Assembly: GCA_010093815.1 (NCBI GenBank)
Contig: ML996566.1
Reading direction: 5' to 3' (one strand)
DNA from: Pseudovirgaria hyperparasitica
Lineage: Eukaryota
Length of the DNA: 64,000 bases
Made by a program: the position numbers and the translations under genes. Positions 14,740 to 64,000 of the stretch are shown here, in pieces. Position 1 is the stretch's first letter. Every line of letters begins with the position of its first letter. Under the pieces are notes generated by a model, which was not told where the DNA came from, did no database searches, and saw nothing but the letters and a program-made list of their open reading frames with translations.

Positions 14740-16159
14740 TCATATATACCTTAGCATTTTCAACGGATAGACTATAATTCCGGCGATTGCAGTAAGGCCA
14801 GAGAATACAATCAACGGGCCATACCCACTTCCATATCCACCTATGGCATGTCCACGCCACGGCGCACCCTTCACCAACGCTTCGCTCAAAGGTCCAGATA
14901 TAAGATTTCCTATTCCGCGACCTAGCAATAGGCATCCCATCAATGAGATTGGGTCTCCGGGGCCATAGCCCGCAGCCTCGCCCTTTTGCGTGACTGTCTG
15001 CATGATGCCAGAGTAGATGCTTGTATAACCACCAGCGAAGAGGCCATACAGTATCGCGAAGACGTATAGCTGAGGTAGCTTTGTCGTCAGACCCCAGATG
15101 AGGAGCACCGAGACACTAGTACCGACCGCAGAGATGAAAACGCACATAGTTGTGGAGAGCTTGTCAGACATGAAGCCCATAATCACACATCCGAGAGTGG
15201 CACAGATGTTGAGCACCATAAGCGTCAACGCAGACAAGAAGTTCGGCGCCCCGAACTGTTCGCTCGCATACGACGGGAGGTAGATGCTTGGGAGGAAGTA
15301 TCCCGTGGCGTGTAGCACATTGATAAGCCAATAACACACAAACGTGCTCGAGAAAATGTATCGGAGATTGAGCGGCTGCACCTTCGACGCCATCGACTGC
15401 GGTATCCTGGGTCGAACGAAGAATGCGAATGGAGCAGTGAGCGCGAAGGTGACACCGGCCCAGATCCGTAATGTCGTCCGAAAGCCGAGTTTGTCGAGCA
15501 TGACTTCGAGCACGAGGGGGATCACTACACCTCCGACGCCTGCGGCGCTCCATGCGATGCCGTACGCCAGCCCTTTGCGTTTGTCGAACCATTCGTCGAT
15601 GTATACGATGCAGGGCGAGTACGCGAGACAGCCGCCGACGCCGAAGAGGACGCCTTGGACGCCGATGAGCTGGTTGACGGTGTTGCATAGAGAGGCAAGG
15701 CCCAGGGACAGAGTCGCGAGGATGATTCCAAAGAGGGAGAACCAGCGGGACAAGCGAGGGAAATGGCGAAGGAGCGGCGTGACGAAAGGTGTAGCAAAGT
15801 ACAGGATACCCTGTCCTCGTCAATTGATACGAACGAATATTCTCGCAATCCAAGTAACATACCTGGGTAGTGGTTCCAATCACGGCAATGCTTCCTTGAC
15901 CTGCGAAGGGCTCATGACGGCTATAGTGGTCCTGGAAGATACCGAAGCTGAATGCGAAGCCGTATATCATGGCTTCGAAAACCCAACATGCGCTCAGGAA
16001 TAGCCATGCTTGCTTGCCGGTGTCGGCAGGCGGGATGTCTGCTTCAGTTTTTGGATGGTGGAAGAGAGAAGTACGTTCGGTGTGTTCTTCCCGCCGGCCA
16101 CTCGCATTGGGGGTTGCTCGACTTAAGCCGTCATCGAGGGTGCCAAAATTCCGAGCCAT
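14740..16159 (-). CDS. MFS transporter, monocarboxylate-porter (Mch-like) family; cluster transporter candidate
   Basis: PPADTGKQAWLFL, FSFGIFQDHY, DEWFDKRKGLAYG motifs, many hydrophobic helices; one intron near 15811-15862. Confidence 0.88.
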
Positions 16160-17372: not shown

Positions 17373-18502
17373 TCAGTAATACATGATGGCTGTACGATGG
17401 GCATGGTATTGCAGCGCAGTCATCTCCTTATACTTGGACGTGGTCCCTTCCGGCACAAAGAGTGGGATCGGGCCTGCAGAAGTCGCTCGATTCGCCTTCA
17501 AAAAGAAAGCGACCGAGTAACGCTCTGGAAACACCTCACCCTTGACGTCGCTTGGAACGGTCACTTGATGTAGCCCGGCCTGCACTCTCCCATTTGTCCA
17601 TCTCTCGAGTGTATCACCCACGTTGATAAGCAGCTCGGTCTTGTCTACCAACGGCACCGGTAAGTAGCCACCCGGTACATTCTTGTCCTCGATCTCCAGC
17701 CCACCACTCGTGCCCTGTGCCAGCAACGTCAGAATGCCAAAATCTGTGTGTGGCCAGATCGGCATGAGCTTGCCGTCCGCCAGCTTGGACAGCGGTGTCT
17801 CTGGATAGTGGATCATGCGAATCTCGCTCGCATGGCCTTCGCAGCGGTCCACAAGGGCGTCTTTGGGCAACTCCATGGCTACCTCGAGTGCTCGCATCAG
17901 GTCGAGTGATAGCTGCTGCCCTTTTTCGAAGTATTTCTCCATCCACGATTGAAACCCGGGGGCTGCAGAGTTGGAGGGGTAGACGTTGGGGAACTCTGGG
18001 TCGCCGACAGGGCCCATGTCGAAGTGCTCCTGAAGGGCATCACGTGAGCCTGTGAAGTCACAGAATTTTCGTTTGATACCATACCTTCAAGTCTGTGCGG
18101 CCTACGTTGTCGACCATGTCCATACTGATGGTAGTGTCGTTGATCTCTCGCGTCCCAGGTAAGTTCAATGTGGCTGTCGATTCAGCACCAGGGTGACTCC
18201 ATCCTCGTTGAGGCTTGGGACCCTTCACATTCGCGAACTTCTCCTTTTCCTCTTTCGGTAGAGTGAACATAGAAGCGCTCTATGGCTCGTCAACATTTTC
18301 TCCACAATAAGTCTATGTTCGAGACTAGACGTACCTGCTTGAACAACATGGTCATATCCTCCTCAGTCAGGCCATGGTTGACAAGCTTGACGAAGCCGGC
18401 ATCTGTCAGGCCCTGAAGAAATTGGTTGGAAAACTCTCGCTGCTCCGACTTGGTACCATGGAATTTGGCCATGTCCAGCGTCAAAAGATCCATGTTGATC
18501 AT
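17373..18502 (-). CDS. 2-oxoglutarate/Fe(II)-dependent dioxygenase (isopenicillin N synthase-like family), 3 exons
   Basis: GFVKLVNHG N-terminal motif, PQRGWS, HTD..H iron triad (WPHTDFG, GLHQV), RYS cosubstrate motif; introns near 18281-18335 and 18031-18084. Confidence 0.92.
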
Positions 18503-19341: not shown

Positions 19342-20547
19342 TCATGACTCAGGGGAGTTCGTCTTCTTGAGTACAGCCTTGAAGAACTCACAGAGTCTTT
19401 CGAAAGCTTGCTCGCTAATCTGATAGTGGAAGCAGATACGCCCATACAATGGTGCTCCTATCTTCAGTCCGAATTGACTTGACATAGGGTAGAAATCCTC
19501 ATCTCTCAGACCAGAGGCTTCAAGATCGAACCAGATTATGTTTGTTTCTGTGGGTAATTGAAGCTTTCCGCCGTGCTCTTCCCAAACAGACGAAGCATAT
19601 CTGGCCTTTTCTTGTGCGGATCTCAACAAACCACCAAGAAATACTGTTTCTATTGCTACTCTTGCTGGCGCAGCAATCACACCAGAACTCCGAGTGCTAC
19701 CACCCAGAAGCTTGCGACCCCACTTTGCACGTTTGATGAATGCAGAACTCCCGGTGACAATGCTGCCAAGTGGAGCACCGAGTCCTTTTGTAAAGCACAT
19801 CTGGATACTATCGAAACACTCTCCCATGTCACGCAGTGTGCAGGCTCCAGCAGCGACTGCTTCCCACACTCGAGCGCCGTCTAAATGCATATGAATAGGA
19901 GGCGTCTGAGCACGAGCCCATTTCGAGATGGCACGAATATCAGACAGAGGGAATATCGTCCCCCAAAGAGTATTTTCTAAGCTTATTACCCGAGTAGGAC
20001 AGTCGTATACGCTTTCGGTGATGGTGGCGTGTTTCTTGACATCGGCCAAAGTGAGATGATGGCCGTTGGATGGAACGACTTGCTTGATCATGGCGCCACA
20101 GACACTTGAAGGCCCCCCGCCTTCTAGAATGATAATGTGCCCACGATGATCGGCCAAAATTGAATGAGGCGGGCTGGTGAGAGCAGACCGGAGAGCCACT
20201 TGATTTCCCATGGTCCCTGACATGACCAGAAGAGATGCCTCATGGCCCACGAGGCCAGCAACGTATTCCTGGAACGAGTTCGTTGTTTCGTCCTCATCCA
20301 TATCGCCATCACCTAGCGTTGTAGCGCTTATAGCAGCTAGCATTGGTAATGTAGGAATGGTAACAAAGTCGGATCGGAAATCATTGGAAGATCTGTCGCT
20401 CCGTGCCCACGCAAGATGCTGGAGACACTTCATATCTTCAGTAAGCCCAGAGATCTTTGAATCATCGTTGTGAGTCTTTGATGGGACAAAACGCGTGGGA
20501 GTAGACACGTCCTGCGCCTTCTCTGGGTCAATTAAAGATGGTGCCAT
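19342..20547 (-). CDS. PLP-dependent threonine aldolase (GLY1)/fungal alanine racemase family enzyme, intronless
   Basis: NDFRSD, SGTMGNQ, ISLENT, HLDGAR and CFTKGLGAP (PLP lysine) motifs; likely start MAPSLIDP at 20547. Confidence 0.9.
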   Translation of the reverse strand: MAPSLIDPEKAQDVSTPTRFVPSKTHNDDSKISGLTEDMKCLQHLAWARSDRSSNDFRSDFVTIPTLPMLAAISATTLGDGDMDEDETTNSFQEYVAGLVGHEASLLVMSGTMGNQVALRSALTSPPHSILADHRGHIIILEGGGPSSVCGAMIKQVVPSNGHHLTLADVKKHATITESVYDCPTRVISLENTLWGTIFPLSDIRAISKWARAQTPPIHMHLDGARVWEAVAAGACTLRDMGECFDSIQMCFTKGLGAPLGSIVTGSSAFIKRAKWGRKLLGGSTRSSGVIAAPARVAIETVFLGGLLRSAQEKARYASSVWEEHGGKLQLPTETNIIWFDLEASGLRDEDFYPMSSQFGLKIGAPLYGRICFHYQISEQAFERLCEFFKAVLKKTNSPES

Positions 20548-20734
20548 AGTTTCTCGATGGTCACAAGTCTTCGAATAGAGGCAGAAGCTCGCCCTAAGAG
20601 GGACTTTGGACAAAACATGAGGATTCAGAACTCGTGAGAAGACTCGTAAACATGTAGCTGCTCTTTGGACGAATTCCTTCCATCCAGAGCAGGAGGTGAG
20701 TAAGCTGCGCAGTGTTGAGTAAGACCGGACCTGG

Positions 20735-20770
20735 TCGGAGCGGGGCCTGCTAGTGATATCGGAGCGGGGC
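20735..20770 (+). promoter_or_regulatory. Two copies of TCGGAGCGGGGC (CGG-N2-CGG) in the divergent aldolase/NRPS-PKS promoter; candidate Zn2Cys6 sites
   Basis: Exact 12-bp copies at 20735-20746 and 20759-20770; related motifs at 17027-17036 (+) and 18789-18798 (-). Function is inferred. Confidence 0.55.
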
Positions 20771-21402
20771 ATGCACAAAAAATCGGGGTGCATGTTGTGT
20801 TTTAGACACCCGTACGCATGTAGGTTATGAAGCCGTCGTATAGAGTAGTGAGAATCATGTCCGGTTACCGTAAAGGGGGATCCGTAACTTGCTTAGAACC
20901 TAATTATCTTGGCGTCAGAACATGGTGCTACGTTGGCCTCATGAACATAGTAAAATTATGCGAGGCAGTGTACGCAAATCATGTAGTGTCATTACCATTG
21001 TTGACAAGAAGATAATCAGCAGCGACTTGATCCGAACTAGGATTCATGACCAAGTCCCTGATAGGTCCAGTTGAGTACTGAACGCAAGCCACCGGCCGTC
21101 TAGAGCGATAACAAGAAAAGGGGACGTGAATCTTGACGATCAGGTACAAACGTGGTAGTATCATGTGAAGTTGCATGCAAGCATACGTGAAAACATCCCA
21201 GGTCATGTTTGAGAAAGCATTCAGGGCTCTCGGGTCTGTGCCACCAAGTCCGCCAAACGTGCGTCCGATTCAATGTTTGGAATCGGACGTCGAATCAAGT
21301 CAAAAGTATGACGAATTCCGGTTATCGAAAAAGGTCTGAATCCCAGAACGTTTTCCGTACACTCCTACCAGGCACACCAGTTGTCGCGGCGATCAAGAAA
21401 AG

Positions 21403-24400
21403 ATGAGCTTTACATCTGCTGCCCATCATGACTTCAACAACTTGACCGATGACAGTACGAAGCTCGGCCACTGCCTACCACATCTCCTTGAGCATGTTGC
21501 AGAAACATATCTCACAAATACTGCCGTCATATGTGGATCGAGAGAATTGACCTATGGAGAACTCAATCGAAGCGCAAACGTTTTAGCTGCGGTGCTAAGA
21601 AATCGAGGCATCGGTCGCGGTGACTTGGTTGGGATTGCACTGGACCGCTCACTTGATTTGGTAGTAGTGTTGATTGCTGTGTTAAAGTCTGGCGCTGCAT
21701 ATTTGCCTATCGATCCGTCGTTTCCTACGGAACGAATCCGCCATATCCTTGAGGATGCCGAACCGAAGATCGTCGTTGTCGGAGACGCAACACGAGACAT
21801 CTCACAGACATGGGGTTACGCACGCCTAGATCTCGATGAAATCAGAGAAAGCAACGAGAAACTTGATGACAAGCCATTCGATGCCGACGCAGGACTGAGC
21901 GCGGAAGATTTGGCATACGTCATCTACACTTCTGGTTCTACTGGAAAACCGAAAGGCGTGGAGATTAGCCATGGTGCTCTTTCGAATCTGTTGCTTAGCA
22001 TGAAAGAAGAGCCTGGCTGTGACGACACAGATCGACTGCTTGCCATTACGACCATCTCGTTTGACATTGCTGCCCTGGAGCTATTTGTTCCGTTGCTGAG
22101 TGGTGGAACAACAGTGTTGGCTATGACACATGAGACTAGACTTCCTGAATCGATTATGGCCCTTATACAACGGCACAGTATTACGATGATGCAAGCTACA
22201 CCTGCAACTTGGCAAATGCTTCTGGACTTTGGCTGGAAGGGGGACCCTCGTCTCAGCAAGATCCTCTGCGGTGGAGAAAAACTGAGTACCCGCTTGGCAC
22301 GACGAATGCTTCCATGTGCGGAGGTTGTGTGGAATCTTTACGGTCCAACCGAAGCGACTGGTATGAGACCTTTCTAGCCTTTCGTTTGTTTTGTCTTGCT
22401 CACAATTATAGTTTGGGCGAGCGCCTGGAAAGTGTCACCAGACGAAGATGTTGTTATTGGCCGGCCAGTATCAAACTACAAGCTATATGTGCTCGATGCC
22501 GAGCTCGCCGTAGTCCCGGCTGGCACAGATGGTGAGCTTTACATAGGAGGCGCCGGGCTGGCAAGAGGATATCGAAACAAGTCAGAGCTCACGAGAACGA
22601 AATTTATTCATAACCCTTTCCATGAAGGTCTGATGTACCGAAGTGGCGATTTAGCTCGTTATGACGACCAGTTTAGAATCACGGTGGTAGGCCGTGCGGA
22701 TGGCCAAGTCAAAATTCGCGGTCATCGAATTGAGCTGGGTGATATTGAGGCTACGCTGAGTGAGCATCCGATGATCTCGGATGTGGTCGTCGTGAGTAAA
22801 GACGAGCGACTCATCGCTTACTACATCGCAAATTCTAGTGGAAGGAATCAAACTTCAAAGCTCGACAGCATGCTTCGATCATGGTTGACGGAGCGCCTCC
22901 CTGTGTACTCAGTGCCAGCATTCTTCGTAGTATTGGATGCCTTCCCAATGACGCTCAATAATAAGGTCGACAGAAACTCGTTACCAGATCCAGCGCACGC
23001 ACTTCAGCCTGTATTCACCAGGGAGATAACGAGTGTAGAGTCAAGCGTTAGGCTCATCTGGTCGAAGGTCTTGGGCCATGATCAGATCGGCCCATCAGAC
23101 AATTTCTTTGAAGTTGGTGGGAACTCTGTACTCGTAGTACAAGTCCAGAAGGAGTTGGAGAAACATTTCGCGAGGCGTATATCCTCGGCTTTGATGTTTG
23201 AGCATTTTACTCTTGAGGCTCTGTCAACATATCTAGAGACAACCACCGCAGCAGACAGTTCGCCTACGAAGAGTAATAATCTCCAGGACTTGGAGAAACC
23301 CTGTAGAACAAACAATATTCACACCAGAAAACCCTCTCAGCGGCATCCAGATGGAGATGAAGAGGCAATTGCAGTGGTTGGAATGTCATGCCGGCTCCCA
23401 GGAAATGTTTCTACTCCCCAGCAATATTGGGACATTCTCGAGTCTGGTGCCGATGTTATCTCGGAGGTGCCGCGAGATCGATGGGACGCCGACGCAATTT
23501 ACAGTGAGGACCCTGACGCCAAAGGGAAGTCTTACTGCCGCCGAGGTGGCTTTCTATCCTCGGTCGACCATTTCGATGCGTCGTTCTTTGGCATATCGCC
23601 GAGAGAGGCAACAATGATGGACCCAGCACAGCGCATAATGCTTGAAACCAGCTGGGAAAGCTTTGAGCGGGCTGGTTATACGATTGAAAGCCTACGCGGA
23701 AGCCAAACAGGGGTCTATATAGGTACATGCAATATCTCTGCACATACGACTGCGCCGCCTGGAGAGAGACTGGACGGCTACAACGTGACGGGTACCTCAT
23801 CTGGAACCATGTCCGGACGAATCTCGTACAGTCTTGGGCTTGAAGGTCCAAGTATGACAATCGACACCGCCTGTGCCAGTTCTCTGGTCACAACGCATTT
23901 GGCTTGCAACGCACTTCGTGCTGGTGAATGCGATGTTGCATTGTCTGGCGGAATTACACTCCTCCTAAACCCTGGTATGCACATTGAGTTCAGTAGACTT
24001 CAGGGAATATCAAGAGATGGGCGGTGCAGGGCATTTGCGAAAGACTCTGGCGGGACAGGGTGGGCTGAAGGTTGCACCTGTGTCGTGTTGAAGAGATTGC
24101 GCGACGTTAAACCTGGCGAGACCGTACATGCGCTCATTAAGGGGTCTGCAGTGAACCACGCGGGCCGAAGTGCTGCCGGATTGACCGTGCCGAGTGGGTC
24201 TGCCCAACAGTCCTTGATCCGTACCGCGTTGGCTTCCTCACAACTGGCCACTGATGATATCGACTATATCGAGACCCATGGCACAGGTACGAAACTTGGA
24301 GATCCTATTGAGGGGGGGTCGCTCGCAGCGGTGTTTGGCGGACGCAGACAGCCAGAGGGGCTTGGCGTACAGTCGAAAAGCCTCCCCCTATACATCGGAT

Positions 24401-27400
24401 CGTGAGTAGAGATGTCGTACAGACCTCGACTTCCATAACTAACAGAACTAGTGTCAAAAGCCAAATAGGCCATACTCAAGCAGCAGCGGGTCTAGCCGGA
24501 CTGCTCAAAGTTGTTTTGGCATTGAAAAATGGCAGAATTCCGCGAACTTTACATGCTACAGAGCCCTCTTTAGAGATAGATTGGCAGAGTGCGAATATGG
24601 AGTTAATCCAGCAACCTAAGTCGTGGCCCGAACAGACTGGCCGACCTCGACGGGCTGGCGTAAGTGCGTTCGGCATCGGTGGAACCAATGCACACGTGAT
24701 CGTAGAGGAATGTCCTTCGACAAGAGAACCACAGTCGGACGTGGTATCAGCAACCGACTTTCCATTCCTATTATCTGCCCATTCAGAAAATACACTCATT
24801 GAACAGGCCGCAAAACTTGCACGCCACCTTGAGAGCACCAGCGACTTTGATAGTGCTCGCCTCAGCTATTCACTGGCTACCACTCGGACTCATTTTCAGC
24901 GGCGAATTGCCATTCTGGCGAAGGACAAACCCACACTAATCAAAGAACTTCGTTCTGTCTCAAATTCAGCTGTTTCCACAACTACCAGTCAAAGGCCGTG
25001 CGTAGCAATGCTCTTCGCAGGGCAGGGAAGCCAGTATCTGGGCATGGGTAGGAACCTTTACCAAGTATATCCTGTATATCGAAATGCCATGGACCAAGTC
25101 TTATCACATTTCACCTCATTAGACGAAGGTAAATCGCTAAGAGAAGTCATGGAGGCCGTCCCAGGTAGCGATGACTCTCTACTCATAGATCGTACTAGCT
25201 TCGCACAGCCAGCCCTTTTCGCGCTAGAAGTAGCTCTATGGGAGCTTTGGAAGAGCTGGGGAGTACAGACAAAGCTGGCTATTGGTCACAGTGTCGGCGA
25301 GCTTTCGGCTGCTTACTGTGCTGGCGTCTGGAATCTAGCGGATGCCTGTCGTCTCGTTGCTGCGAGAGGACGACTGATGCAGGCTGTTCCTACTCGAGGC
25401 AGTATGGTCTCTCTTGAGGCTAGTGTTACAGAGGTATCAACAGCAATCGTTGAGGCGGGTGTGGATGGCTTGGTGAGCATCGCAGGCCATAATACTCCCA
25501 CGCAGACTGTGGCTTCCGGGGATTCGGACGCCATCAAAACCTTAATTACCTACCTCAGTACGTACGACCGCACTGTGAAGATAAAGCTACTTCCGGTCTC
25601 ACACGCCTTCCACTCGCACCACATTGATAGCATACTGGGAGACTATCAAGCGGTTCTCGATACTATGCGGTTCTCTTCACCCACGATACCAATCGTGAGC
25701 ACACTGACAGGCAAGCTAGCTCAGCCAGGCCAACTCGAAAGCCCCAGCTATTGGGTAGCGCAGGCGCGTAGAGCTGTTTGTTTTGTTGAAGGAATGCAAA
25801 CACTGAGTCAGGAGGGCGCCAATATCTTCATTGAAATGGGACCGCAATCAACTCTGACCGGGATGGGAGCAGCTTGTCTTTCCTCCGACGATTCTCTTGC
25901 CTGGCTACCATCGCTAGCAAAGAGTGGCAGGTCAGTGATACAGCATACAGTTACACAACTACATGTGCGAAGAGTTTCTATATATTGGCATGAGTATTTT
26001 GGATCGTTTGGTCGCTTTCAACCCGTGGAGTTGCCAACATATGCATTTCAGCGAGACTACTTCATTCCTTTGCGGAATCAGGGGAGGGAATTCTCCAAGC
26101 AGGACAACAACGCAAACGACCGAAGGCAACAGCAACGTACTAAACATGATACAATGGTTACAGACCGCTTTGCCTTTGAAGTTTCATGGCAACAACGAAA
26201 TCAGGAGCCGATAACTCCTCAAATTGGACTAGGAGGCAAAGGCTGCTCATGGGGGTTATTATGTGGCCCTTGCATGGACGGTGAACAACCTATAATGCCC
26301 CTGAAGCTAGCGTTATCACTGATGGGTATACAACTACTACCAGTGGCGAACATTTGCGAGGCTCAAACTCTACAGATTGATGGATTATTGTGTTTTTGGA
26401 ATTCCGGAACAAACTTGCCTAAAGCTCAGGTCCCCGACCATGTTCAGAAGTTGACCTCGGCTGGACTGCTACAGCTACAGGATGCAGTCCGCCTGCAGTT
26501 TCAGCCATGGATAGTCTGGGTCACACAGAACGCAATAGGAGCTGGTGCTGAGGATGATGGAGTCTCGGGACTTGCGGCGAGCCCACTATGGGGACTCATG
26601 CGCACTGCTCGAAATGAGCATCCCGAGCTGCGTATGCGTCTAATCGATCTCGACGTAAATCCCCACGATTTTACAAATTCGATTGGGTCTACGCTGAACA
26701 GTATGCTCAATTGTAATGCAGAGCCAGAATGTGCCATGCGACAGGGAAGGATTCTCGTCCCCCGACTGCAGCGGATCGACAAGAGCTCAATAAATCTACA
26801 GCCAGATCATGAAATTACGCTTCAAGATGGAGCAGTGCTAATCACAGGTGGTCTCGGTGTTCTCGGTCGTCACGTCGCCCGGTATCTGGTGCAGGTACAT
26901 CACATTCGACATCTCATCTTGACCTCGCGTCGTGGGATGGAAGCCAATAATGCATGCGCAACAATTGAGGAATTGACTGGACTTGGCGCGCAAGTCGCCG
27001 TAGTAGCATGCGAAATGGGCGATCCAGAAAGTGTGAAGCTACTTCTGGCCAGCTTTAATGACGCTGACTGCCCTCTACGTGGTGTTATCCACGCAGCTGG
27101 CGCACAAGACAACGGCGTCTTCACAGCGCTGACACCACAGCGATGTACCACGACATTTGCACCCAAGGTTTCGGGGGCTTGGTATCTTCATGAGCTTACT
27201 CAGGCTATGCATTTAGATTTCTTTGTAATGTTTTCATCTATATCTGGGATCATGGGTATGGAGGGCCACGCAAATTACGCGGCGGCTAACACGTTCCTTG
27301 ATGCACTCGCACATCTTCGTCGTGGAAAGGGCCAACCAGCAAGTTCTATCGCCTTCGGTCCATGGACAGGGGACGGTATGGCATCCAAAATCATCGACTC

Positions 27401-29123
27401 GACACGTGTGCGTCTTATCCAATCTGGACTCAATATGCTTGCACCCGAAGATGGATTGGAACTGCTGGCCCAGGCGATATCGAAGCGGCGTACGCTGACT
27501 GTTGCTGCCGCGTTAGACCTGGATCGACTACAGAGCTATCACGAAGACCGAGGTAACATACCGGGGCTACTACGCTCATTATTGCAACAGGGAGAGAAGA
27601 AGACTGTTGACCAAAGCCGGACCTTCAGTCAAACTATAGCCCAGGCCGCTCGCCAGGAGCGACCTCACATTACACTGAGCATAGTACAAGAGACTGTTGC
27701 GAGTGCACTGGGCTTCACTCTACCATCCCAGGTTGATATGGAAGCCACTCTGCAAGACATTGGAATTGATTCGCTCACCGCAGTTCTTATTCGCAACCGA
27801 CTGGCAAAGCTAACGGGCTTGAGTTTACCTGCCAGGTTTGTATTCCAGCACCCTAATTTAAGAGCGCTCAGCAATTTTCTGCTTTCCGAGCTAGAAGAAG
27901 AAAATTCCTCTGCATCTTCGCTGGACAATTCTACACCGAATACGACCCCATCCTCGTCACAGCTATGGCTCGACGTGGAGCCAATGAAACGAGGCTGCCT
28001 TGATGCTACTTTCACGTTTGGCAGCAAAGTCTCTACACCCCCGGAAACGGTATTTTTGACGGGGGCCACTGGCTTCGTGGGCGCGTTCATACTCCACGAG
28101 TTGCTGGAGCTTGGTGTGGAGGTCCATTGCCTGGTCCGCGCTGATGATGAGGCTCAGGGACTACAACGTTTGCTCAGCACTCTGTCAAATTATAGTTTGT
28201 GGAACGACAAACACAGCTCGTTACTCCATCCTATCATTGGCGACATGGCATTACCTCTTTTTGGGCTCACTGAAGACAAGTTTGCCGAGTTAGCAGATAG
28301 TGTTGATTCGATATGTCACTCTTCAGCATATTGCAATTGGATGGCTGACATAGGAGAGTATTTCGGCCCCAACATTGTCAGTGCCCATGAGGTTCTACGG
28401 CTGGCAGCACACGGGCGCGGGAAGGCTGTGCACATGATCTCCACGATGTCTACAATACCGAAGTATCTAGGCTACGATATTAGAGAGGACGATCCAGAGT
28501 TCGGATATGCAACTTCCAAATATACCGCGGAGAGACTTATGGTAGCTGGGCGTTGGCGAGGTGCAAAAGTATCCATCTACCGCCTACCTTTCGTTTCTGC
28601 ATCGACTGCAACCGGACATTTCCGTCTTGACCAGAAGGACTTTTTACACAACCTCATTTCTGGATGTTTGGAGATGAGCATGTTCCCCGAAATTGACGCT
28701 GACTTGTCGTCTATCATACCAGTCGACTATGTCTCCAGAACTGTCGCCAGCATCATGATGAGAGATACACATCGGATTGGGCAAGACTTCAATTTCACGA
28801 ATGGCAGTGCTCTCAGTTTTAACCAGTTCTTCACTTTCATTATCGGCAATAGCCCTGGGATCGAGATTGTTCCATTTTCGACATGGCGGAGCCATGCCTT
28901 GCGAGAAGCTGCCTCAAACACGTCAAGTCTCATAGCTCGGATCGTTCCTTTGCTTGAAGATGTCACTGATGATAAGGGGGCCTCGGCTATGGTTTCCGGT
29001 CATCCAGTGATCGAGCCGATTCTAGGAGTGAACGATTTTCCGGTGCCAATGGTTACTGAAGAATCTGCATCGAGATACGCAAAGCAAATCAGAAGTTCTC
29101 GGAAGCATTTCTGTGCCTATTGA
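21403..29123 (+). CDS. Hybrid NRPS-PKS megasynthase, A-T-KS-AT-KR-ACP-R (introns 22361-22411 and 24402-24451)
   Basis: A: YTSGSTGKPKG, NLYGPTE, YRSGDL, NNKVDR. T: FFEVGGNS. KS: DTACASS, ETHGTGT, KSQIGHTQ. AT: GHSVG, HAFHS. KR: TGGLGVLG, HAAG, NYAAAN. ACP: IGIDSL. Terminal reductase: FLTGATGFVG, GYATSK. The two GT-AG introns join the three ORFs in frame. Confidence 0.95.
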
Positions 29124-30488: not shown

Positions 30489-31763
30489 ATGCAATGCTCA
30501 AACCAATATACAACCACGCACAATGACCTTCGTTCAGAAGAATTTGGCCGGCGATCAGCATGTGATAGGTGTCGAAGGATGAAGACACGCTGCGAGCGAC
30601 CGCAATACGGTGACAAGACACAGCTGCAACAATGCCGCCGGTGTATACAAGCTCAAACGAACTGTATCACCACTGTCGAGTCGCAATTACTTCCAGGAAT
30701 GATGCCAGATGAGCGAACACAACGCTACAAACGTCCTCGAACACCTTCTTTTGAGTCAATAGACACCGATCATCGGAATGAGTATACTGGAGCTTTTGGA
30801 GAGCAACAGCAAGACTTTTTCCTAGATGGATTCCTTGCACGATCTATAGCTGAGAGCACACCGTATACTCAATCAAGTGGGACAAATTCTGATCAAAACA
30901 TTTTACCACCATCCCGTACGGATCTACAATGGCTCGAGTTCGGGCACGATTTCGGCCTAGAAGAAAACCCGATTCCTGATAATCTAGCATTCCTTAGCAA
31001 AGTGGTTTCTCATGAGAGTAAGGAAGGCTTAACAAATGGAGACAATCCGGAAACCGCGGTGCCAATGGTGAACACAAATGAGACCGTCTCAGCAACAGAG
31101 AATGACTGTGGAATACCCCAGTGCAACAGACTGGTTGACCTGAGATCTGAATCTGAGCTGTCAAACCAAAGCGTAACAAGAGTACTACTAGAGTTCAATC
31201 ACAAAATCTCTTCAAGTTTACAGTACGATAACAACACGTCTCGGATTCACGATTGTATGGCCACGACTTTGGGACATTCCAAGAAATTTGTCGAGTTACT
31301 GAACAGAATCGTCCCGCATGAGCAAGCTATCGATATCACGGTCACTCCTAAGGATGCAACAGGCGAACTGCCAATACGAAGTAAACAAATCGACATAGAA
31401 ATTGCATTGCAAATTCTATCCTGCCACACGAGTATGCACATCATGTACGAGAAACTGTACAAGTCTCTTGTTGATCACGACTTTCAGCTAAAAGAAGCAA
31501 CCATACTGCCAGCGCTACAACTCGAGGGCCTGCAAGCACTGAGCTCTGATATGCGTAGTCACATGCTGGTACAAATCTGTATGCTGACTTTGGCAGAGAT
31601 TCAGGCCAAGATGAATTCAATAAGACGCAGTGGGTCACTGACGCCCATAGCAGCAAGGACCTTCGAAAGTGTGCTTGGGACAGACGCAAGTGAGCCATGG
31701 CGTCCGAGGGTCGGGGTGAAATGCGTCGCGGACGAGTTCCGAGATTTGCTTAGAAAAAAATGA
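30489..31763 (+). CDS. Zn(II)2Cys6 transcription factor, probable cluster-specific regulator
   Basis: ACDRCRRMKTRCERPQYGDKTQLQQCRRCIQAQTNC six-cysteine motif; next gene after the NRPS-PKS. Confidence 0.88.
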   Translation: MQCSNQYTTTHNDLRSEEFGRRSACDRCRRMKTRCERPQYGDKTQLQQCRRCIQAQTNCITTVESQLLPGMMPDERTQRYKRPRTPSFESIDTDHRNEYTGAFGEQQQDFFLDGFLARSIAESTPYTQSSGTNSDQNILPPSRTDLQWLEFGHDFGLEENPIPDNLAFLSKVVSHESKEGLTNGDNPETAVPMVNTNETVSATENDCGIPQCNRLVDLRSESELSNQSVTRVLLEFNHKISSSLQYDNNTSRIHDCMATTLGHSKKFVELLNRIVPHEQAIDITVTPKDATGELPIRSKQIDIEIALQILSCHTSMHIMYEKLYKSLVDHDFQLKEATILPALQLEGLQALSSDMRSHMLVQICMLTLAEIQAKMNSIRRSGSLTPIAARTFESVLGTDASEPWRPRVGVKCVADEFRDLLRKK

Positions 31764-36055: not shown

Positions 36056-39000
36056 ATGGAGGCACCGATCAGTATCGCTCAGGAGAACGAAATGTTTCGG
36101 CTTCGGTCCTACCAGACTGAAATGTTGGAGAAGAGCCTTAAGAAAAACATAATAGTGGCGGCAAGTCTGAAACGGCTTTCCCATTCTATGCCTTTCTGCG
36201 GCTAATGTTCATTTATAGATGGATACTGGTAGCGGCAAGACCCACATAGCCATTAGTAGAGCTCGAACAGAGTTGGAGACTTGCGACCCGTATAAAGTAT
36301 GTCTGTCACTGCCTGGTGCTGGTCACGTGTTCAATTCAAGGTTAATTGCCATTCAGATCGTCTGGTTTATAGCTCCGACTGTGGCTCTGTGCAATCAACA
36401 GTATCAAGTATTTCAGACACTACTGCCGGCGTACCAGGCTCGAAAACTCACAAGCATGGAGAATGTCGATACGTGGACCGACCAGCGAACGTGGGATGCA
36501 GTGCTTTACAATATGAGAGTAGTCGTTTCGACTCCGGATGTACTCGCTCAAGCTCTGACCCATGGTTTTGTTCCAATGACCAGACTGGCTTTGCTAATTT
36601 TTGACGAGGGTATGTCTGATCAATATAGTAATGCTGTATTTTTAACGCCACCCAGCCCATCATTGTACTAAGAACCATCCAATGAACAGGATTATGAAAG
36701 ATTTCTATCACAGAATGCGACGAAAGGACCCATCATTAGTACCGCCAATTCTCGGTCTCACTGCAAGCCCAGTGATCAACAGCAACCCAAAAGCTTTGCA
36801 GTACGTACACCAGATATAATATCTGCCGCTCTCTGACATTCTCAGAACAATCGAGCAGAACTTGGATTCTCACGTCACCATTCCTAAGATCCATCAGACT
36901 GAATTCTTGCAGCACGTGCATCGACCTAATTTGGAACCAGTATTCTTTCAGGTCGACCTCCCAGTGCGAAATGTCAGAGGTAGTGCCATTATGACAGCAC
37001 TACAGGAAGCATATCATGGTTATGATCTCGCGAGTGATCCGTATATCCAGGACTTGTATGAAAGGATGCGCTACGATCCGACCGCCGAATGCAAACTTAG
37101 TAAGGCGTTCGCGAAGGAATCCACATATTGCCTGGAACAGCTGAAGTCCATTCAGTCTAGGGCCTATAGCGTGTGTGAGCAGCTTGGCGCATTTGCAGCT
37201 GAACGTTACATCGTGCGATGTGTAGACCGGCTCAAAGACGCGGCTGAAATGAACGAGGAGTCACAGATGCTCGGCTGGTCCGGGCGAGAAAAGACTCATT
37301 TGATGGCATTGCTTCGTAAAATTGTAGCACCAGTATCTTCTGGGCCTCCTGCAGAGGGTATATCTGCTAAGGCTACTGCCCTGATAAGCTATCTCAAGAA
37401 AGCATACCATAAGGACTTCAGGGGTCTTATCTTCGCCGAAAGACGAGCTGTGGTGAATGCTCTTGAAGATGTGATCCGAAATGATCCCGACCTGAAACAG
37501 TCTTTCCAGGTTGGGGCATTCGTGGGTACTTCTTCATCTTCGAGTCGATCCAAGGACGTTGCAGAACTGGTTGATATCAAAGGTCAAGACCAAACCTTGA
37601 AGGACTTTCGAGAGGGTCGTAAAAACCTCATAGTGACCACCAGTGTCCTTGAGGAAGGCATTGATGTCCCAAATTGTAACGTCGTGATATGTTTCGATGC
37701 GCTAACAAACCTGAAGATGTATGTGCAGCGCAGAGGCAGGGCCAGAAAAATGGCCTCGAATTTCATGATCATGATACCTCAAAACGCATTAGAGTCGTCT
37801 TCGGTGACAGAATGGTCCACACTGGAGCAGATCCTGAAAGAGGAGTATGCCGATGAGTCGCGTCAGATCAAGCCTATGAACAGTACAGAGTTAATCGACG
37901 AGGCTGATGACTACAGCCTGTATGTCGACTCGACGCAGTAAGTAGTACAGCCCCTTATCTGTTCTCATTCGCAATGCTCTGCTTACTAGCTGTCTATAGA
38001 GCCTTACTTACTTCCGATGGCGCATTGCCTCATCTTTTTCACTTTTGCGCCACCCTCAGGACAGGTCCACATACGGACCACCGACCTGAATTTAAACTCG
38101 ATACAGATGACGAAGGCTGTTTTTCGGCAGAGGTTACCCTTCCGCTGGCTGTGGACGCCTCTCTCCGACGTCACAAGGGTATTTCGAAGTGGAAAAATGA
38201 GAAAGACGCGAGAAAGGATGCTGCCTTTCAAGCCTACAAGGCCTTGCATGAAGCCGGATTGATTGGCAGCAATTTGTTGCCTTTGCACGGTGAGGTTAAT
38301 GGAGCACCTCAATGCGATATGATAGATGACCGCCCAGCCATGGTACCAGTCAATCCAAGGATAGATCCTTGGGCCCTTCACGCGACAGCTATAGGAAACC
38401 AGCGCTACGCGTATCGCATCCGGTTCTCTAGTACTAACCACAGTTGTGAGTTTGACGTGATGACGACAATGCCTTTACCTACAATTCCACCATACAATCT
38501 ATATTGGAACAAGTCGCTCGTATATGAGGTCTCCTATGAGCTCCAGAGGGACCAACCCATGCATATAGAAGACGATCTGGTTGCATCGCTCCAAAAAGTC
38601 ACCTACCATCTCTTGTCATCAAGTCTGGGTTCACACCGCTTAGTTTCCAACAAGTTCGACTTTGTCGTGCTTCTATTACCCAACATAGAGCTTAGTACTT
38701 CTGCCGTCGACGACTTTGTAGCGACCACATCTGGGGCTCGACCAGCAACGATCCTCGAGAAGTATCCAACCATGGATGGCCATTCAAGTCGTCTTGGACT
38801 GGTGCGGCGTCATGGAGCCAGTGAACGATTTATGCTTCAAAAAATAAATGAAAGAGTAGATGAACAATCACAAGGCTCCAAGGAATATGTTTTGAAGGTG
38901 AGTAAGTTTCCAAAGAGAAAAGACTTCCTTCACCAAGTGGACGCCCGGGAAAAGCAAAATCCAGCGTATACAGCTGTATTGGAACTTGAACTGGCGGACA

Positions 39001-40598
39001 GTGTCATCGAAATGTTGCCAGCAGATCTTGTCACTGCTGTGACCTTTGCGCCTTGCGTCTTGCATCGTCTAGAAGTTTACATGGTGGCCCAAAATCTTTC
39101 CGCTGGCATATTTGCTCCTGTTGGTTTCACTGATGTGCATCTCGTTTTGACAGCTTTGTGTGCCACGTCGGCTAGAGAGCATGTAAACTATCAGCGCATG
39201 GAATACCTCGGTGATGCCTTACTCAAGTTCGCCTCTTCGATCCGCCTAATGGCAAGAAATCTTACCTGGCCAGAGAGCTATCTCACAGCCGAGAAAGGAC
39301 GCACCGTCTCAAATGGATACCTTGCCAAAGCATCTCTGGATGCTGGTCTCGATCAATACATCATCCGAACAGGATTTACCGGCGCCAAGTGGCAACCGCA
39401 ATACTTATCTGATGTGCACGCTCGACAATATGAAAAACAAGAAGCCAAACAGAAAGACAATATTTCTACTAAAACCTTGGCCGATGTTGTTGAGTCCTTG
39501 ATAGGCGCATCATATTTGTCTAGAGGTCGGATATCTGATGCATTGACATGCATGCAGATTCTACTTCCCCGGGAACCATGGCTTTCGATACATGATGCCA
39601 ACAAGATTCTCTTCTCAGCGGCCCCAGAAATATCTGGTATTCCGCCCTCGCATTTCAAACCGGTCGAAGAACTGTTAGGCCACACCTTTGATCGCGTATC
39701 TATTCTTACTGAAGCCCTGACTCACCCATCGTACTCACCACCACACCATGAGCGAATATCCTCCTACCAAAGACTCGAGTTCCTCGGCGATGCCGTGATC
39801 GACTACATTATCTCGACAAGATTGTACGCACACAATCCACCGCTGTCGCACGGTCTAATGCATACGTTCCGCACCGCACTTGTCAACGGATACCTCCTCG
39901 CCTTTCTTATGTTTGAGCTTAAGATCTCCGAAGTGCGCTACGAGCTTCCAACGACGGCAAAACGGAAGTGGGACTCCGTCGCCGAGCCTGGAATCCAGGA
40001 CTTCACCAGGTCGTTATATCAGTTCTTGCGTCACAACTCGCCAGAGTTACTGCACGCTCGGCATGCAACCCATGCGCGTCATATGGGCCTTCGCGCAGCA
40101 ATTCTCGAGGCACTATACAACGGGCATGAATATCCTTGGGCGGAATTGGAACAAGCCAGGGCCGAGAAGGTTTTTTCTGATATCGTTGAGAGCGCCATAG
40201 GTGCCATCTACATTGATTCGCATGGCTCATTTGAGGCTTGCGAGAAGTTTCTTGAGAAGCTGGGGCTGTTCAAGGCCATGCAGCGGATGGTCGCCGGGCA
40301 GTTGGACTGCCTGCATCCGAAGGAACGGCTAGGGCAGCTCGCGGTGAACGACAAAGTTTTGTACGAACATGTCAAGAAATCGGCCGGTGCAAAGGCGAAA
40401 CCTGGCCACAGTTCAGAGGGCTCTACTACCTCGCGTCCTGCACCCGGCTATGTATGCCGCGTCAGAGTGGGCGACAATTATATAGGTGATGCTGTCGAAG
40501 GAGTGTTAAGGTCGGAAACAGAGACACTGGCAGCGTGGAGGGCATGCCAGGTGATTCGAACACAGATGTCAGTTGATAACTCGACGATTTCTGGGTAG
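36056..40598 (+). CDS. dcl2: Dicer-like protein 2 (DExH helicase, helicase C, dimerisation domain, two RNase III domains, degenerate dsRBD)
   Basis: [12 protein letters not shown], spliced [31 protein letters not shown], RNase III signatures [10 protein letters not shown] and [17 protein letters not shown]; about 5 introns. The start codon is approximate. Confidence 0.93.
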
Positions 40599-63200: not shown

Positions 63201-64000
63201 GCCTTCAGAGGTTTCGGTGGCCCACAAGGAATCTTCATATGTGAGTCAATGATGGTAGAAGTCGCGGATCACATGAAGATTCCTGTCAACAAGCTACGCG
63301 AACTCAACATGTACAAGTCCGGTGATAAGACTCACTTCAACCAGGAACTCAAGGACTGGTTTGTACCCCTAATGTGGGATCAAGTCAAGCAAGAATCTGA
63401 TTACGAGCGTCGTGAACGTGAAGTCGAGAAATTCAATGAGACGCACAAATGGAACAAGCGCGGCCTTGCTCTCATCCCAACAAAGTTTGGTATCTCCTTC
63501 ACTGCGCTTTTCCTGAACCAAGCCGGTGCTCTCGTCCATATCTATCATGATGGCTCCGTCCTGCTCGCTCACGGCGGCACCGAGATGGGCCAAGGCCTGC
63601 ATACTAAAATGATCATGATAGCAGCTGAAGCCCTCGGCGTCCCGCAGGATAATGTCTTCATTTCCGAGACCGCAACGAACACAGTCGCGAACACTTCATC
63701 AACTGCTGCTTCTGCGTCCAGCGACCTTAATGGTTATGCTATTTGGAATGCCTGTTCAGAACTCAACAAGCGTCTCGAGCCGTATCGAGAGAAACTAGGT
63801 AGGGACACACCAATGAGTAAACTTGCCCACGCAGCATACTTTGATCGCGTCAACTTGTCCGCCCAGGGCTTCTATAAGACACCCGAGATTGGATATGTAT
63901 GGGGCGCAAACAAGGGCATGATGTTCTACTACTTCACACAGGGTGTCTCCGCCGCCGAAGTTGAGATCGACACGCTCACGGGTGATTGGACGTGCCGGCG
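60296..64000 (+). CDS. hxA: Xanthine dehydrogenase (3'-partial)
   Basis: 2Fe-2S motifs [37 protein letters not shown] domain AGRQIRNVG; Moco motifs GGGFGGKE and [10 protein letters not shown]. Introns near 60521-60577 and 60781-60830; frame stays open to the window end. Confidence 0.95.

What the first reader, a model, noticed from the sequence alone, without database searches (positions are those of the whole stretch)
19342..20547. Divergent threonine-aldolase paralogue head-to-head with the synthase: glycine supply, racemase or tailoring enzyme?
Seen: intronless gene sharing an ~855-bp divergent promoter with the NRPS-PKS. The PLP lysine motif is intact, but it has DFRSDFVT where GLY1-type enzymes usually have SDTVT. 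Established: low-specificity threonine aldolase cleaves Thr to Gly plus acetaldehyde; fungal alanine racemases (HC-toxin TOXG, cyclosporin racemase) belong to the same family. Inference: it supplies glycine for the A domain. Alternatively it could condense glycine with the aldehyde released by the R domain to make a new beta-hydroxy amino acid.
Basis: partly seen in the sequence, partly recalled or inferred. Interest (0 to 1): 0.7.

Follow-up and report, generated by a model that had tools for sequence, protein, structure and literature searches.

The report
Aldolase-like enzyme partnered with SwnK-like synthase
This fungal gene resembles threonine aldolase but belongs to a divergent branch that lacks the two usual active-site histidines and is inherited next to a swainsonine-synthase-like enzyme in many fungi, so it probably helps build an unknown alkaloid instead of doing housekeeping glycine metabolism.

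Summary
Window 19342..20547 (-) encodes a 401-aa threonine-aldolase-family PLP enzyme (Pfam PF01212, E 1.4e-66). RNA contigs show no intron. It lies 855 bp head-to-head with an intact A-T-KS-AT-KR-ACP-R NRPS-PKS.

New here:
- The synthase is "NPS7" of Pseudovirgaria hyperparasitica. It belongs to an uncharacterised SwnK-like clade, not to SwnK proper.
- 13 of the 119 closest aldolase homologues sit on the same contig as a close homologue of the synthase. Six of those contigs are under 100 kb, and one pair carries adjacent locus tags. The species span four fungal classes.
- These 13 and the window gene form one well-supported clade, far from yeast GLY1 (36% identity).
- The enzyme keeps the PLP lysine, the PLP aspartate and both carboxylate-binding arginines.
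- The same species carries a second paralogue.
- The aldolase gene and the synthase are covered by one spliced RNA contig.

Glycine supply from threonine is therefore unlikely. The "glycine" A-domain code is typical of this synthase family and close to that of pipecolate-loading SwnK. The best reading is a cluster-dedicated PLP enzyme that makes or edits the synthase's amino-acid starter. Its chemistry is unproven.

The parts
19342..20547 (-). Threonine-aldolase-family PLP enzyme, 401 aa (P0001). The database model starts at Met39 (20433). PLP Lys254. Ser59, Asp60, Asp223, Arg226, Lys279, Arg286 and Arg370 are kept. Phe61, Ala122, Leu194 and Trp195 replace Thr8, His83 and His126 of L-threonine aldolases.
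   Evidence: no RNA joint inside the gene
20548..21402 (.). 855-bp divergent intergenic region between the aldolase-like gene and the synthase. It is fully covered by the RNA contigs.
   Evidence: Only two CGG..CCG sites (20862, 21093) and no 9-mer shared with three other cluster promoters.
21403..29123 (+). NRPS-PKS with domains A-T-KS-AT-KR-ACP-R, about 2539 aa. Exons are 21403..22360, 22412..24401 and 24452..29123. The database model P0272 (2541 aa) is named 'nonribosomal peptide synthetase 7'. A-domain code is DILALGLVWK.
   Evidence: both introns confirmed by RNA joints; catalytic motifs invariant in 12 homologues
17373..18493 (-). 2OG-Fe(II) oxygenase (DIOX_N + 2OG-FeII_Oxy), 336 aa in the database model P0392. 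Introns at 18029..18083 and 18280..18334. The start at 18493 is inferred from the model's length. Its RNA contig depth is about 30-100 times that of the aldolase/synthase contig, depending on run and contig.
14740..16159 (-). MFS transporter (approximate limits), intron 15810..15861. Probable cluster transporter.
30489..31763 (+). Zn(2)Cys(6) transcription factor, probable cluster regulator. Transcribed.

Best explanation
The gene encodes a cluster-dedicated, neofunctionalised member of the threonine-aldolase family of PLP enzymes. It is inherited and transcribed together with a SwnK-like NRPS-PKS.

Shown:
- The fold, the PLP-binding residues and the alpha-carboxylate-binding residues are intact, so it should bind an alpha-amino acid as a PLP aldimine.
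- The residues that hold the threonine hydroxyl and the catalytic water (Thr8, His83, His126 in E. coli numbering) are replaced by Phe61, Ala122 and Leu194/Trp195.
- Its clade is physically linked to the synthase clade in at least 13 other genomes or contigs.

Inferred:
- It uses PLP-stabilised C-alpha carbanion chemistry on a substrate other than threonine to make or stereo-edit the amino acid that the A domain loads. This is the slot filled in the swainsonine cluster by the PLP enzyme SwnA, which supplies pipecolate to SwnK.
- Two chemistries fit. One is aldol-type synthesis of a non-proteinogenic amino acid from glycine plus an aldehyde (about 0.25). The other is racemisation of a small hydrophobic amino acid, as in TOXG and SimB (about 0.2).
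- The synthase would then add one malonate (AT motif HAFH), reduce the ketone (KR) and release an amino-aldehyde (R domain with intact YxxxK) that cyclises to a small N-heterocycle.
For: Linkage.
- 13 of 119 non-self aldolase hits have the same longest-contig length as one of 119 non-self synthase hits.
- In 9 of the 13 the same species name appears on both sides: Xylona heveae, Lindgomyces ingoldianus, Bipolaris oryzae, Zopfia rhizophila, Diplocarpon mali, Cucurbitaria berberidis, Cercophora sp., Triangularia setosa, Purpureocillium takamizusanense.
- Six of the contigs are 14-97 kb long.
- The Cercophora pair carries adjacent tags, OQA88_1128 and OQA88_1129.

Trees.
- The window gene and all 13 linked rows fall in one 74-row clade of 205 rows (FastTree, support 100).
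- They also fall in one 22-row clade of 49 rows (IQ-TREE quick, SH-aLRT 99).
- 12 of the 13 linked synthases, plus the window synthase, fall in one 26-row clade of 109 rows. None of the 30 rows of the SwnK clade is linked.
- Sub-clades agree between the two trees: P0029/P0050 pair with P0295/P0298.

Active site.
- Ala122 aligns with His83 in 2 of 3 distinct solved L-threonine aldolases; in the third, a gap shifts the match to Leu123. Leu194/Trp195 align with the ENTHNG histidine.
- 118 of the 120 closest rows lack His at position 122, and 0 of 120 have His at 194/195. Asp223, Arg226, Lys254, Arg286 and Arg370 are kept in at least 119 of 120.
- His83 and His126 hold the catalytic water and the substrate hydroxyl. 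The His83 equivalent is required in the Caulobacter enzyme (passages of PMC4761611).

Expression. One spliced RNA contig per run covers 19138/19258 to about 29700.

Precedents. SwnA supplies L-pipecolate to SwnK (passages of bioRxiv 10.1101/2024.09.26.615303). TOXG and SimB supply D-Ala to NRPSs.
Against: - No assay, so the chemistry is inferred only.
- The whole 116-row Pezizomycotina clade lacks both histidines, including widely distributed groups not seen to be linked to any synthase. The Ashbya GLY1-type protein P0183 also lacks His at position 122. Loss of the histidines alone therefore does not prove loss of aldolase activity. E. coli His83 and His126 mutants also keep some activity.
- Linkage rests on contig-length and name matches, not on inspected DNA. 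Gene order and distance are unknown except for small contigs and the Cercophora tags.
- RNA comes from one sample of one study. Contigs give no strand, and the intronless aldolase part cannot be told from DNA carry-over.
- Co-variation between the aldolase pocket and the A-domain code is weak. P0013 and P0025 are exceptions.
- TOXG and SimB could not be placed in the tree.
Confidence: 0.45

Rival explanations
1. Downstream C-C bond former. The enzyme makes a glycine (or alanine) PLP quinonoid and adds it to the aldehyde, or to the cyclic imine derived from it, released by the R domain (aldol or Mannich addition). This extends the product into a beta-hydroxy or beta-amino alpha-amino acid.
For: - The conserved pairing with a reductase-terminated synthase fits equally well.
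- The R domain has an invariant YxxxK and an NADPH motif.
- The carboxylate-binding arginines are kept while the side-chain pocket has become aromatic and hydrophobic (Phe61, Trp195). That could hold an incoming electrophile.
- Threonine aldolases run glycine plus aldehyde condensations in vitro (abstract and passages of PMC4761611).
Against: - No general base is evident for the aldol step once His83 and His126 are gone.
- In the SwnK system the released amino-aldehyde cyclises by itself and needs only reductases.
- No precedent for this was found in the papers searched.
Confidence: 0.2
2. It is a working low-specificity threonine aldolase that cleaves threonine to raise the glycine pool for a glycine-loading A domain.
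For: - Family membership and an intact PLP and carboxylate site.
- The A-domain code DILALGLVWK is 8 of 10 identical to the bacterial glycine code as I recall it. That code comes from recall, not from a call.
- Histidine mutants of the E. coli enzyme keep some activity.
Against: - Both hydroxyl- and water-binding histidines and Thr8 are replaced.
- Pipecolate-loading SwnK has a very similar code, DMLAIGV-YK, so the glycine call is unsafe.
- Glycine is an abundant primary metabolite. A strictly co-inherited, co-diversifying supplier with variable pocket residues (position 195 is W, C, S or E among linked members) is hard to explain by glycine supply.
- The protein is only 36% identical to yeast GLY1-type proteins and lies outside their branch.
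Confidence: 0.12
3. Bystander. It is an ordinary metabolic paralogue that merely sits beside the synthase and has no role in its product.
For: - Filamentous ascomycetes carry several aldolase-family paralogues of unknown role.
- Most of the 74-row clade could not be shown to be linked (13 of 73 non-window rows).
Against: - Same-contig pairs recur across Dothideomycetes, Leotiomycetes, Xylonomycetes and Sordariomycetes with matching sub-clades in both trees.
- The genes are arranged head to head, and one RNA contig covers both.
Confidence: 0.05

Closest known systems
Low-specificity L-threonine aldolase (E. coli LtaE 4lnj/3wlx, T. maritima 1jg8, Aeromonas jandaei 3wgb; yeast GLY1 type)
   Same: - Same Pfam family and fold.
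- Same PLP lysine and PLP aspartate, the two carboxylate-binding arginines and the Lys222-equivalent Lys279.
   Different: - Thr8 is Phe61, His83 is Ala122 and His126 is Leu194/Trp195.
- Only 27-33% identical to the solved enzymes in the structural alignments and 36% to the yeast GLY1-type proteins P0159 and P0183.
- Placed in a separate Pezizomycotina clade.
- Linked to a secondary-metabolite synthase.
Fungal aldolase-family alanine racemases TOXG (HC-toxin) and SimB (cyclosporin)
   Same: They are aldolase-family PLP enzymes encoded with a non-ribosomal synthetase, and they supply its unusual amino acid (passages of PMC3729494 and PMC6168864). This is the functional slot proposed here.
   Different: - The partner here is a one-module NRPS-PKS of the SwnK type, not a multi-module peptide synthetase.
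- No D-amino acid is known to be needed.
- Sequence relatedness to TOXG and SimB could not be measured because no tool returned their sequences.
Swainsonine (SWN) cluster: SwnK plus the PLP aminotransferase SwnA, SwnN/R and SwnH1/H2
   Same: - The synthase has the same seven-domain architecture and is 46-48% identical to source-named SwnK rows over AT to R.
- A PLP enzyme and a 2OG oxygenase accompany it.
   Different: - The synthase falls in a separate clade with Slafractonia 'SwnK-like protein 1'.
- The PLP enzyme belongs to the aldolase family and is not an aminotransferase.
- No SwnN- or SwnR-type reductase appeared among window ORFs of at least 150 aa.
- Cheng et al. 2021 (PMC7864672, passages) describe SwnK-like clades that have no experimentally supported member. 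One of them, SwnK-like2, shows no flanking synteny to SWN.

Membership tests
Low-specificity L-threonine aldolase (GLY1/LtaE type) | PF01212 domain and fold-type I aldolase fold | tested here: met
   E 1.4e-66. Foldseek target-normalised TM 0.84-0.87 to 3wgb, 1jg8 and 4lnj.
Low-specificity L-threonine aldolase (GLY1/LtaE type) | PLP lysine, PLP-N1 aspartate and the two substrate-carboxylate arginines | tested here: met
   K254, D223, R226 and R370 align with the solved enzymes and are kept in at least 119 of the 120 closest rows.
Low-specificity L-threonine aldolase (GLY1/LtaE type) | His83 (stacks on PLP, holds the catalytic water and the substrate hydroxyl) | tested here: not met
   Ala122 (or Leu123 with the gap placed otherwise) in alignments to 3wgc, 3wlx and 1jg8. 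118 of the 120 closest rows lack His at this position.
Low-specificity L-threonine aldolase (GLY1/LtaE type) | His126 (ENTHNG in bacteria, ENTLHG in the yeast type) | tested here: not met
   The motif here is ENTLWG. 0 of the 120 closest rows have His at 194 or 195.
Low-specificity L-threonine aldolase (GLY1/LtaE type) | Orthology with yeast GLY1 | tested here: not met
   36% identity to Diutina and Ashbya GLY1-type proteins. These fall outside the 116-row Pezizomycotina clade.
Low-specificity L-threonine aldolase (GLY1/LtaE type) | Cleaves threonine to glycine plus acetaldehyde | not testable with these tools
   Needs an enzyme assay.
Fungal aldolase-family amino-acid racemase (TOXG/SimB) | Aldolase-family PLP enzyme encoded with a non-ribosomal synthetase | tested here: met
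   Head to head with an NRPS-PKS, and linkage recurs in 13 other contigs.
Fungal aldolase-family amino-acid racemase (TOXG/SimB) | Groups with TOXG or SimB in a tree | not tested
   No tool returned these sequences. 20 representatives looked up by name were not TOXG or SimB.
Fungal aldolase-family amino-acid racemase (TOXG/SimB) | Racemase activity | not testable with these tools
   Needs an enzyme assay.
Swainsonine (SWN) cluster | Synthase orthologous to SwnK | tested here: not met
   The window synthase sits in a 26-row clade apart from the 30-row clade that holds 4 of the 6 rows named SwnK.
Swainsonine (SWN) cluster | SwnN/SwnR reductases and the SwnH1/SwnH2 oxygenase pair | tested here: not met
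   Between 12 and 34 kb, Pfam found one 2OG oxygenase and no NmrA- or SDR-type reductase among ORFs of at least 150 aa. Short-exon genes could have been missed.

The most novel reading that the evidence does not exclude
The enzyme is a natural biosynthetic C-C bond-forming PLP enzyme (aldol or Mannich type) that has dropped the aldolase histidines. It builds a beta-hydroxy or cyclic imino acid starter for a widespread, still undiscovered family of swainsonine-like pyrrolizidine or indolizidine alkaloids in plant-associated ascomycetes such as Bipolaris, Diplocarpon and Xylona. In this sub-clade it would work with the neighbouring, highly transcribed dioxygenase. That dioxygenase is 53-56% identical to oxygenases from echinocandin-type producers, one of them named OXY4, the leucine-dioxygenase name used in Glarea. 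Together they could give a hydroxylated methylproline-type unit.
Probability: 0.2. Interest if true: 0.8.

Novelty: new variant of a known kind. Interest (0 to 1): 0.55.

Why it matters
SwnK-like NRPS-PKS genes are widespread in plant pathogens and endophytes, and the papers read here report no product for them (passages of PMC7864672 and PMC5473758).

Showing that a histidine-less aldolase-family enzyme is their conserved partner has three uses:
- It gives a concrete two-gene minimal unit to express for product discovery.
- It marks a natural aldolase scaffold with a remodelled pocket, which is of interest to people who engineer threonine aldolases.
- It warns that "L-allo-threonine aldolase" annotations in filamentous fungi probably cover several different functions.

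My searches for 'swnK' with 'threonine aldolase', 'swainsonine' with 'threonine aldolase', 'NRPS-PKS' with 'threonine aldolase', and 'SwnK' with 'PLP' found no paper describing this pairing. Subscription-only papers were not searched.

Tried and rejected
- Whole-genome search of the window's assembly: no genome is held. The full count of aldolase paralogues in this species, and the presence of a canonical GLY1, remain open.
- Earlier notes of this scan by place, sequence and words: nothing on this locus. Notes on hydroxylase-aldolase pairs in other genomes prompted the oxygenase linkage check.
- Metagenome scan with an alignment of 30 homologues: 80 loci kept, best identity 62%. Only 1 of 80 (L063) had any synthase-like hit, a 23%-identical A-domain stretch, and none had an oxygenase hit. 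This gave no synteny evidence.
- Prokaryote genome scan with 12 synthases: 74 loci. 0 of 74 had an aldolase or oxygenase hit at E 1e-4 within 10 kb. The pairing was therefore not seen among bacterial relatives.
- Oxygenase linkage: of 99 hits, only 2 shared a contig length with both the aldolase and the synthase (96555 and 19751). The oxygenase is an accessory of the nearest sub-clade, not part of the conserved core. A hydroxylate-then-cleave pair is rejected as the general explanation.
- Naming of 20 distant representatives to find TOXG or SimB: none was either.
- Protein Atlas: first call unanswered. The repeat gave only generic aldolase clusters.
- Promoter motifs: no 9-mer is shared by three of the four cluster promoters.
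- RNA: no listed holder is on record as RNA. The two runs were recognised as RNA only from spliced joints.
- Reading the A-domain code as glycine: rejected as unsafe.
Full report
WHAT IS THERE

Window 19342..20547 (-) is an uninterrupted 401-codon frame. The same frame stays open upstream to 20793. It matches Pfam PF01212 (Beta_elim_lyase, the threonine aldolase family) at E 1.4e-66. It matches solved L-threonine aldolases at E 1.4e-44 to 1e-38. An AlphaFold model built from 30 homologues has mean pLDDT 71.7, with residues 1-51 and 126-154 below 50. It superposes on Aeromonas, Thermotoga and E. coli threonine aldolases with target-normalised TM 0.84-0.87.

The database model of the same protein (P0002, 363 aa) starts at Met39. 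Conservation among homologues begins near residue 45, so the start codon is unsettled. With Met39 it is 969 bp.

NEIGHBOURHOOD

- The divergent gene is an NRPS-PKS with exons 21403..22360, 22412..24401 and 24452..29123. Its domains are A-T-KS-AT-KR-ACP-R.
- In an alignment of 12 homologues these motifs are invariant: the KS cysteine and histidines, the AT GHSxG and HAFH motifs, both carrier serines, the KR tyrosine, and the R-domain NADPH and YxxxK motifs. The enzyme therefore looks fully functional and malonate-specific. The reading of HAFH as malonate-specific rests on my own knowledge of AT motifs.
- Upstream of the aldolase-like gene, on the same strand, lie a 2OG-Fe(II) oxygenase (17373..18493) and an MFS transporter (about 14740..16159).
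- Downstream of the synthase lies a Zn2Cys6 regulator (30489..31763).
- Beyond these come ordinary genes: a GH43 hydrolase, MAPEG, a Dicer-like gene, ribosomal protein L1 and others.

ORGANISM AND SYNTHASE FAMILY

The synthase is 100% identical to "nonribosomal peptide synthetase 7" of Pseudovirgaria hyperparasitica (P0272). Source-named SwnK rows are 46-48% identical over AT to R. Slafractonia "SwnK-like protein 1" is 53% identical.

In a FastTree of 109 full-length homologues (first 1100 residues), the window synthase sits in a 26-row clade (support 95). The 30-row clade that holds 4 of the 6 rows named SwnK is separate.

From the literature:
- Lawrence et al. 2011 (PMC3226686, abstract and passages) describe this NPS7/PKS24 family and argue for a bacterial origin.
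- Cheng et al. 2021 (PMC7864672, passages) name two SwnK-like clades with no experimentally supported member. For one of them they found no flanking synteny to the SWN cluster.
- Cook et al. 2017 (PMC5473758, passages) report two swnK paralogues in Slafractonia and guess that one makes slaframine.
- None of these three papers contains the word "aldolase".

IS THE GENE PART OF THE CLUSTER?

I could not fetch fungal DNA, so I used the longest-contig length that each protein hit carries as a fingerprint.

- 13 of the 119 non-self aldolase hits share this number with one of the 119 non-self synthase hits.
- In 9 of the 13 the same species name is given on both sides. The other 4 are unnamed contigs of 14,157, 19,751, 47,475 and 71,573 bp.
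- Six of the shared contigs are under 100 kb: the four unnamed ones plus Triangularia (27,652 bp) and Bipolaris oryzae (96,555 bp).
- The Cercophora pair has adjacent locus tags.
- The species span Dothideomycetes, Leotiomycetes, Xylonomycetes and Sordariomycetes.
- The remaining 106 hits could not be matched. Many sit on tiny contigs or in multi-genome clusters, and only the top 120 synthases were listed. This is a lower bound and not a rate.

In the aldolase tree the window gene and all 13 linked rows fall in one 74-row clade of 205 rows (FastTree, support 100). They also fall in one 22-row clade of 49 rows (IQ-TREE quick, SH-aLRT 99). 12 of the 13 linked synthases fall in the 26-row synthase clade, and none of the 30 SwnK-clade rows is linked. 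Sub-clades match: aldolases P0029 and P0050 group together (support 100), and so do their synthases P0295 and P0298 (support 100).

The oxygenase is less faithful. Only 2 of its 99 hits share a contig length with both partners. The conserved core is therefore synthase plus aldolase-like enzyme.

Among bacterial relatives of the synthase, 0 of 74 loci had an aldolase or oxygenase hit within 10 kb. The pairing was seen only in fungi.

EXPRESSION

Two coded runs from one sample hold the locus. Their contigs splice out exactly the introns I had predicted in the synthase, and further introns in the oxygenase and transporter genes. They are therefore RNA assemblies.

In each run one contig runs from 19138 (or 19258) to about 29700. 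It crosses the aldolase-like gene without any joint, then the whole intergenic region, then the spliced synthase. This confirms that the gene is intronless. It also shows that both genes were transcribed in that sample.

Three limits apply. A contig across two genes is not one transcript. No strand is given. The intronless part cannot be told from DNA carry-over. Oxygenase contigs have roughly 30-100 times the depth of the aldolase/synthase contig, which is a poor measure but a large difference.

ACTIVE SITE

HMMER alignments to five solved threonine aldolase sequences from three enzymes and a MAFFT alignment of 210 family members agree on the following.

- Kept: Ser59, Asp60, Asp223, Arg226, Lys254, Lys279, Arg286 and Arg370. 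These correspond to the PLP lysine and aspartate, the two carboxylate-binding arginines and the Lys222 equivalent.
- Replaced: Thr8 is Phe61. His83 is Ala122 (Leu123 if the gap is placed otherwise). The ENTHNG/ENTLHG histidine is Leu194/Trp195.
- Among the 120 closest rows, 118 lack His at position 122 and 0 have His at 194 or 195.
- Among 90 distant full-length representatives, 44 have His at 122, 20 have His at 194 or 195, and 8 have both.
- Position 61 is Thr in 62 of 77 filled distant rows. In the close rows it is F, Y, I, S or T.
- Position 195 varies among linked members: W, C, S or E.

According to the review PMC4761611 (passages), His83 and His126 hold the catalytic water and the substrate hydroxyl. 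His83 mutants of the E. coli enzyme lose PLP. The His83 equivalent is the one residue absolutely required in the Caulobacter enzyme. Single and double histidine mutants of the E. coli enzyme are nonetheless not dead.

Two caveats limit this argument. The whole 116-row Pezizomycotina clade lacks both histidines, including groups that I could not link to any synthase. The Ashbya GLY1-type protein also lacks His at position 122.

PARALOGY

The protein is 36% identical to GLY1-type proteins of Diutina and Ashbya, which lie far outside its clade.

The same species has a second family member, P0077 (58% identical, on another contig). P0077 groups with the aldolase partners of a different SwnK-like sub-clade. 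Xylona heveae and Purpureocillium takamizusanense each have two paralogues among the hits.

The refutation condition "the genome's only housekeeping GLY1 orthologue" is therefore not met. I could not list all paralogues, because the genome is not held.

A-DOMAIN SUBSTRATE

Mapping the ten specificity positions by motif gives DILALGLVWK. Linked relatives mostly have DIL[AG]LGMVWK. The SwnK clade has DMLAIGV-YK. SwnK loads L-pipecolate (passages of bioRxiv 10.1101/2024.09.26.615303).

The code is thus a family trait. Its resemblance to the bacterial glycine code, which I recall and did not test, is not a safe prediction.

MOST LIKELY FUNCTION

The enzyme should still bind an alpha-amino acid as a PLP aldimine and form a C-alpha carbanion. 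Its side-chain pocket has become hydrophobic and no longer matches threonine.

Its strict partnership with a synthase whose first step is to load one amino acid points to supply or editing of that amino acid. In the sister SWN system a different PLP enzyme, SwnA, supplies that amino acid. TOXG and SimB do the same for D-alanine in the aldolase family itself.

My odds:
- Supply or editing of the starter amino acid: 0.45. I split this into aldol-type synthesis of a non-proteinogenic amino acid (about 0.25) and racemisation (about 0.2).
- Downstream aldol or Mannich addition to the R-domain aldehyde or imine: 0.2.
- Glycine supply by threonine cleavage: 0.12.
- Bystander: 0.05.
- The rest is unassigned.

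A lead for this sub-clade: the neighbouring oxygenase is 53-56% identical over its C-terminal 214 residues to oxygenases from Coleophoma, Venustampulla and Phialomyces. The Phialomyces one is named OXY4. GLOXY4/EcdK is the leucine dioxygenase that leads to 4-methylproline (passages of PMC7778625). Whether the names correspond is not checked.

NOVELTY

This is a new variant of a known kind: an aldolase-family PLP enzyme recruited to secondary metabolism, with a new partner (a SwnK-like NRPS-PKS) and an altered active site. No paper describing the pairing was found in the open literature searched.

Noticed in passing
L081:8042-20491 (also L082, L083): The closest prokaryotic relatives of the whole synthase in the species-representative genome set are three Streptomyces genes. 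They match residues 9-2536 at 51-52% best-segment identity. The L081 gene is 4149 aa and carries an extra N-terminal formyltransferase domain. The 2011 paper named Burkholderiales as the donor lineage.
   Followed up: partly
protein P0077 (same species, contig of 1,427,680 bp; not in the window): A second histidine-less aldolase-family paralogue of the same fungus groups with the aldolase partners of another SwnK-like sub-clade (Zopfia, Cucurbitaria). This hints at a second such cluster in this genome.
   Followed up: partly
window 17373-18493 (-): The 2OG oxygenase contigs have roughly 30-100 times the RNA depth of the aldolase/synthase contig in both runs. The protein is 53-56% identical to oxygenases of echinocandin-type producers, one of them named OXY4. 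It shares a contig with the aldolase and the synthase only in Bipolaris oryzae and one unnamed 19.7-kb contig.
   Followed up: partly
window 20548-21402: RNA contigs cover the whole divergent intergenic region without a break. The 5' ends of the two transcripts may overlap, or there may be read-through or antisense transcription. The contigs carry no strand.
   Followed up: no
window 24402-24451: The database model of the synthase (2541 aa) differs from the RNA-supported splice (2539 aa) by two residues at the second intron: GSTSVKSQ against GSVKSQ.
   Followed up: yes
proteins P0003-P0121 (hits): Filamentous ascomycetes carry a large, diversified clade (116 rows) of proteins annotated 'L-allo-threonine aldolase'. 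All lack both aldolase histidines and vary at pocket positions 61 and 195. The annotation probably hides several functions.
   Followed up: partly
window 36219-40598 (+): A Dicer-like gene (DEAD, Helicase_C, Dicer dimerisation domain and two RNase III domains) lies about 7 kb beyond the cluster. A xanthine-dehydrogenase-type gene runs off the window's end (60933-63998). Both look ordinary.
   Followed up: no
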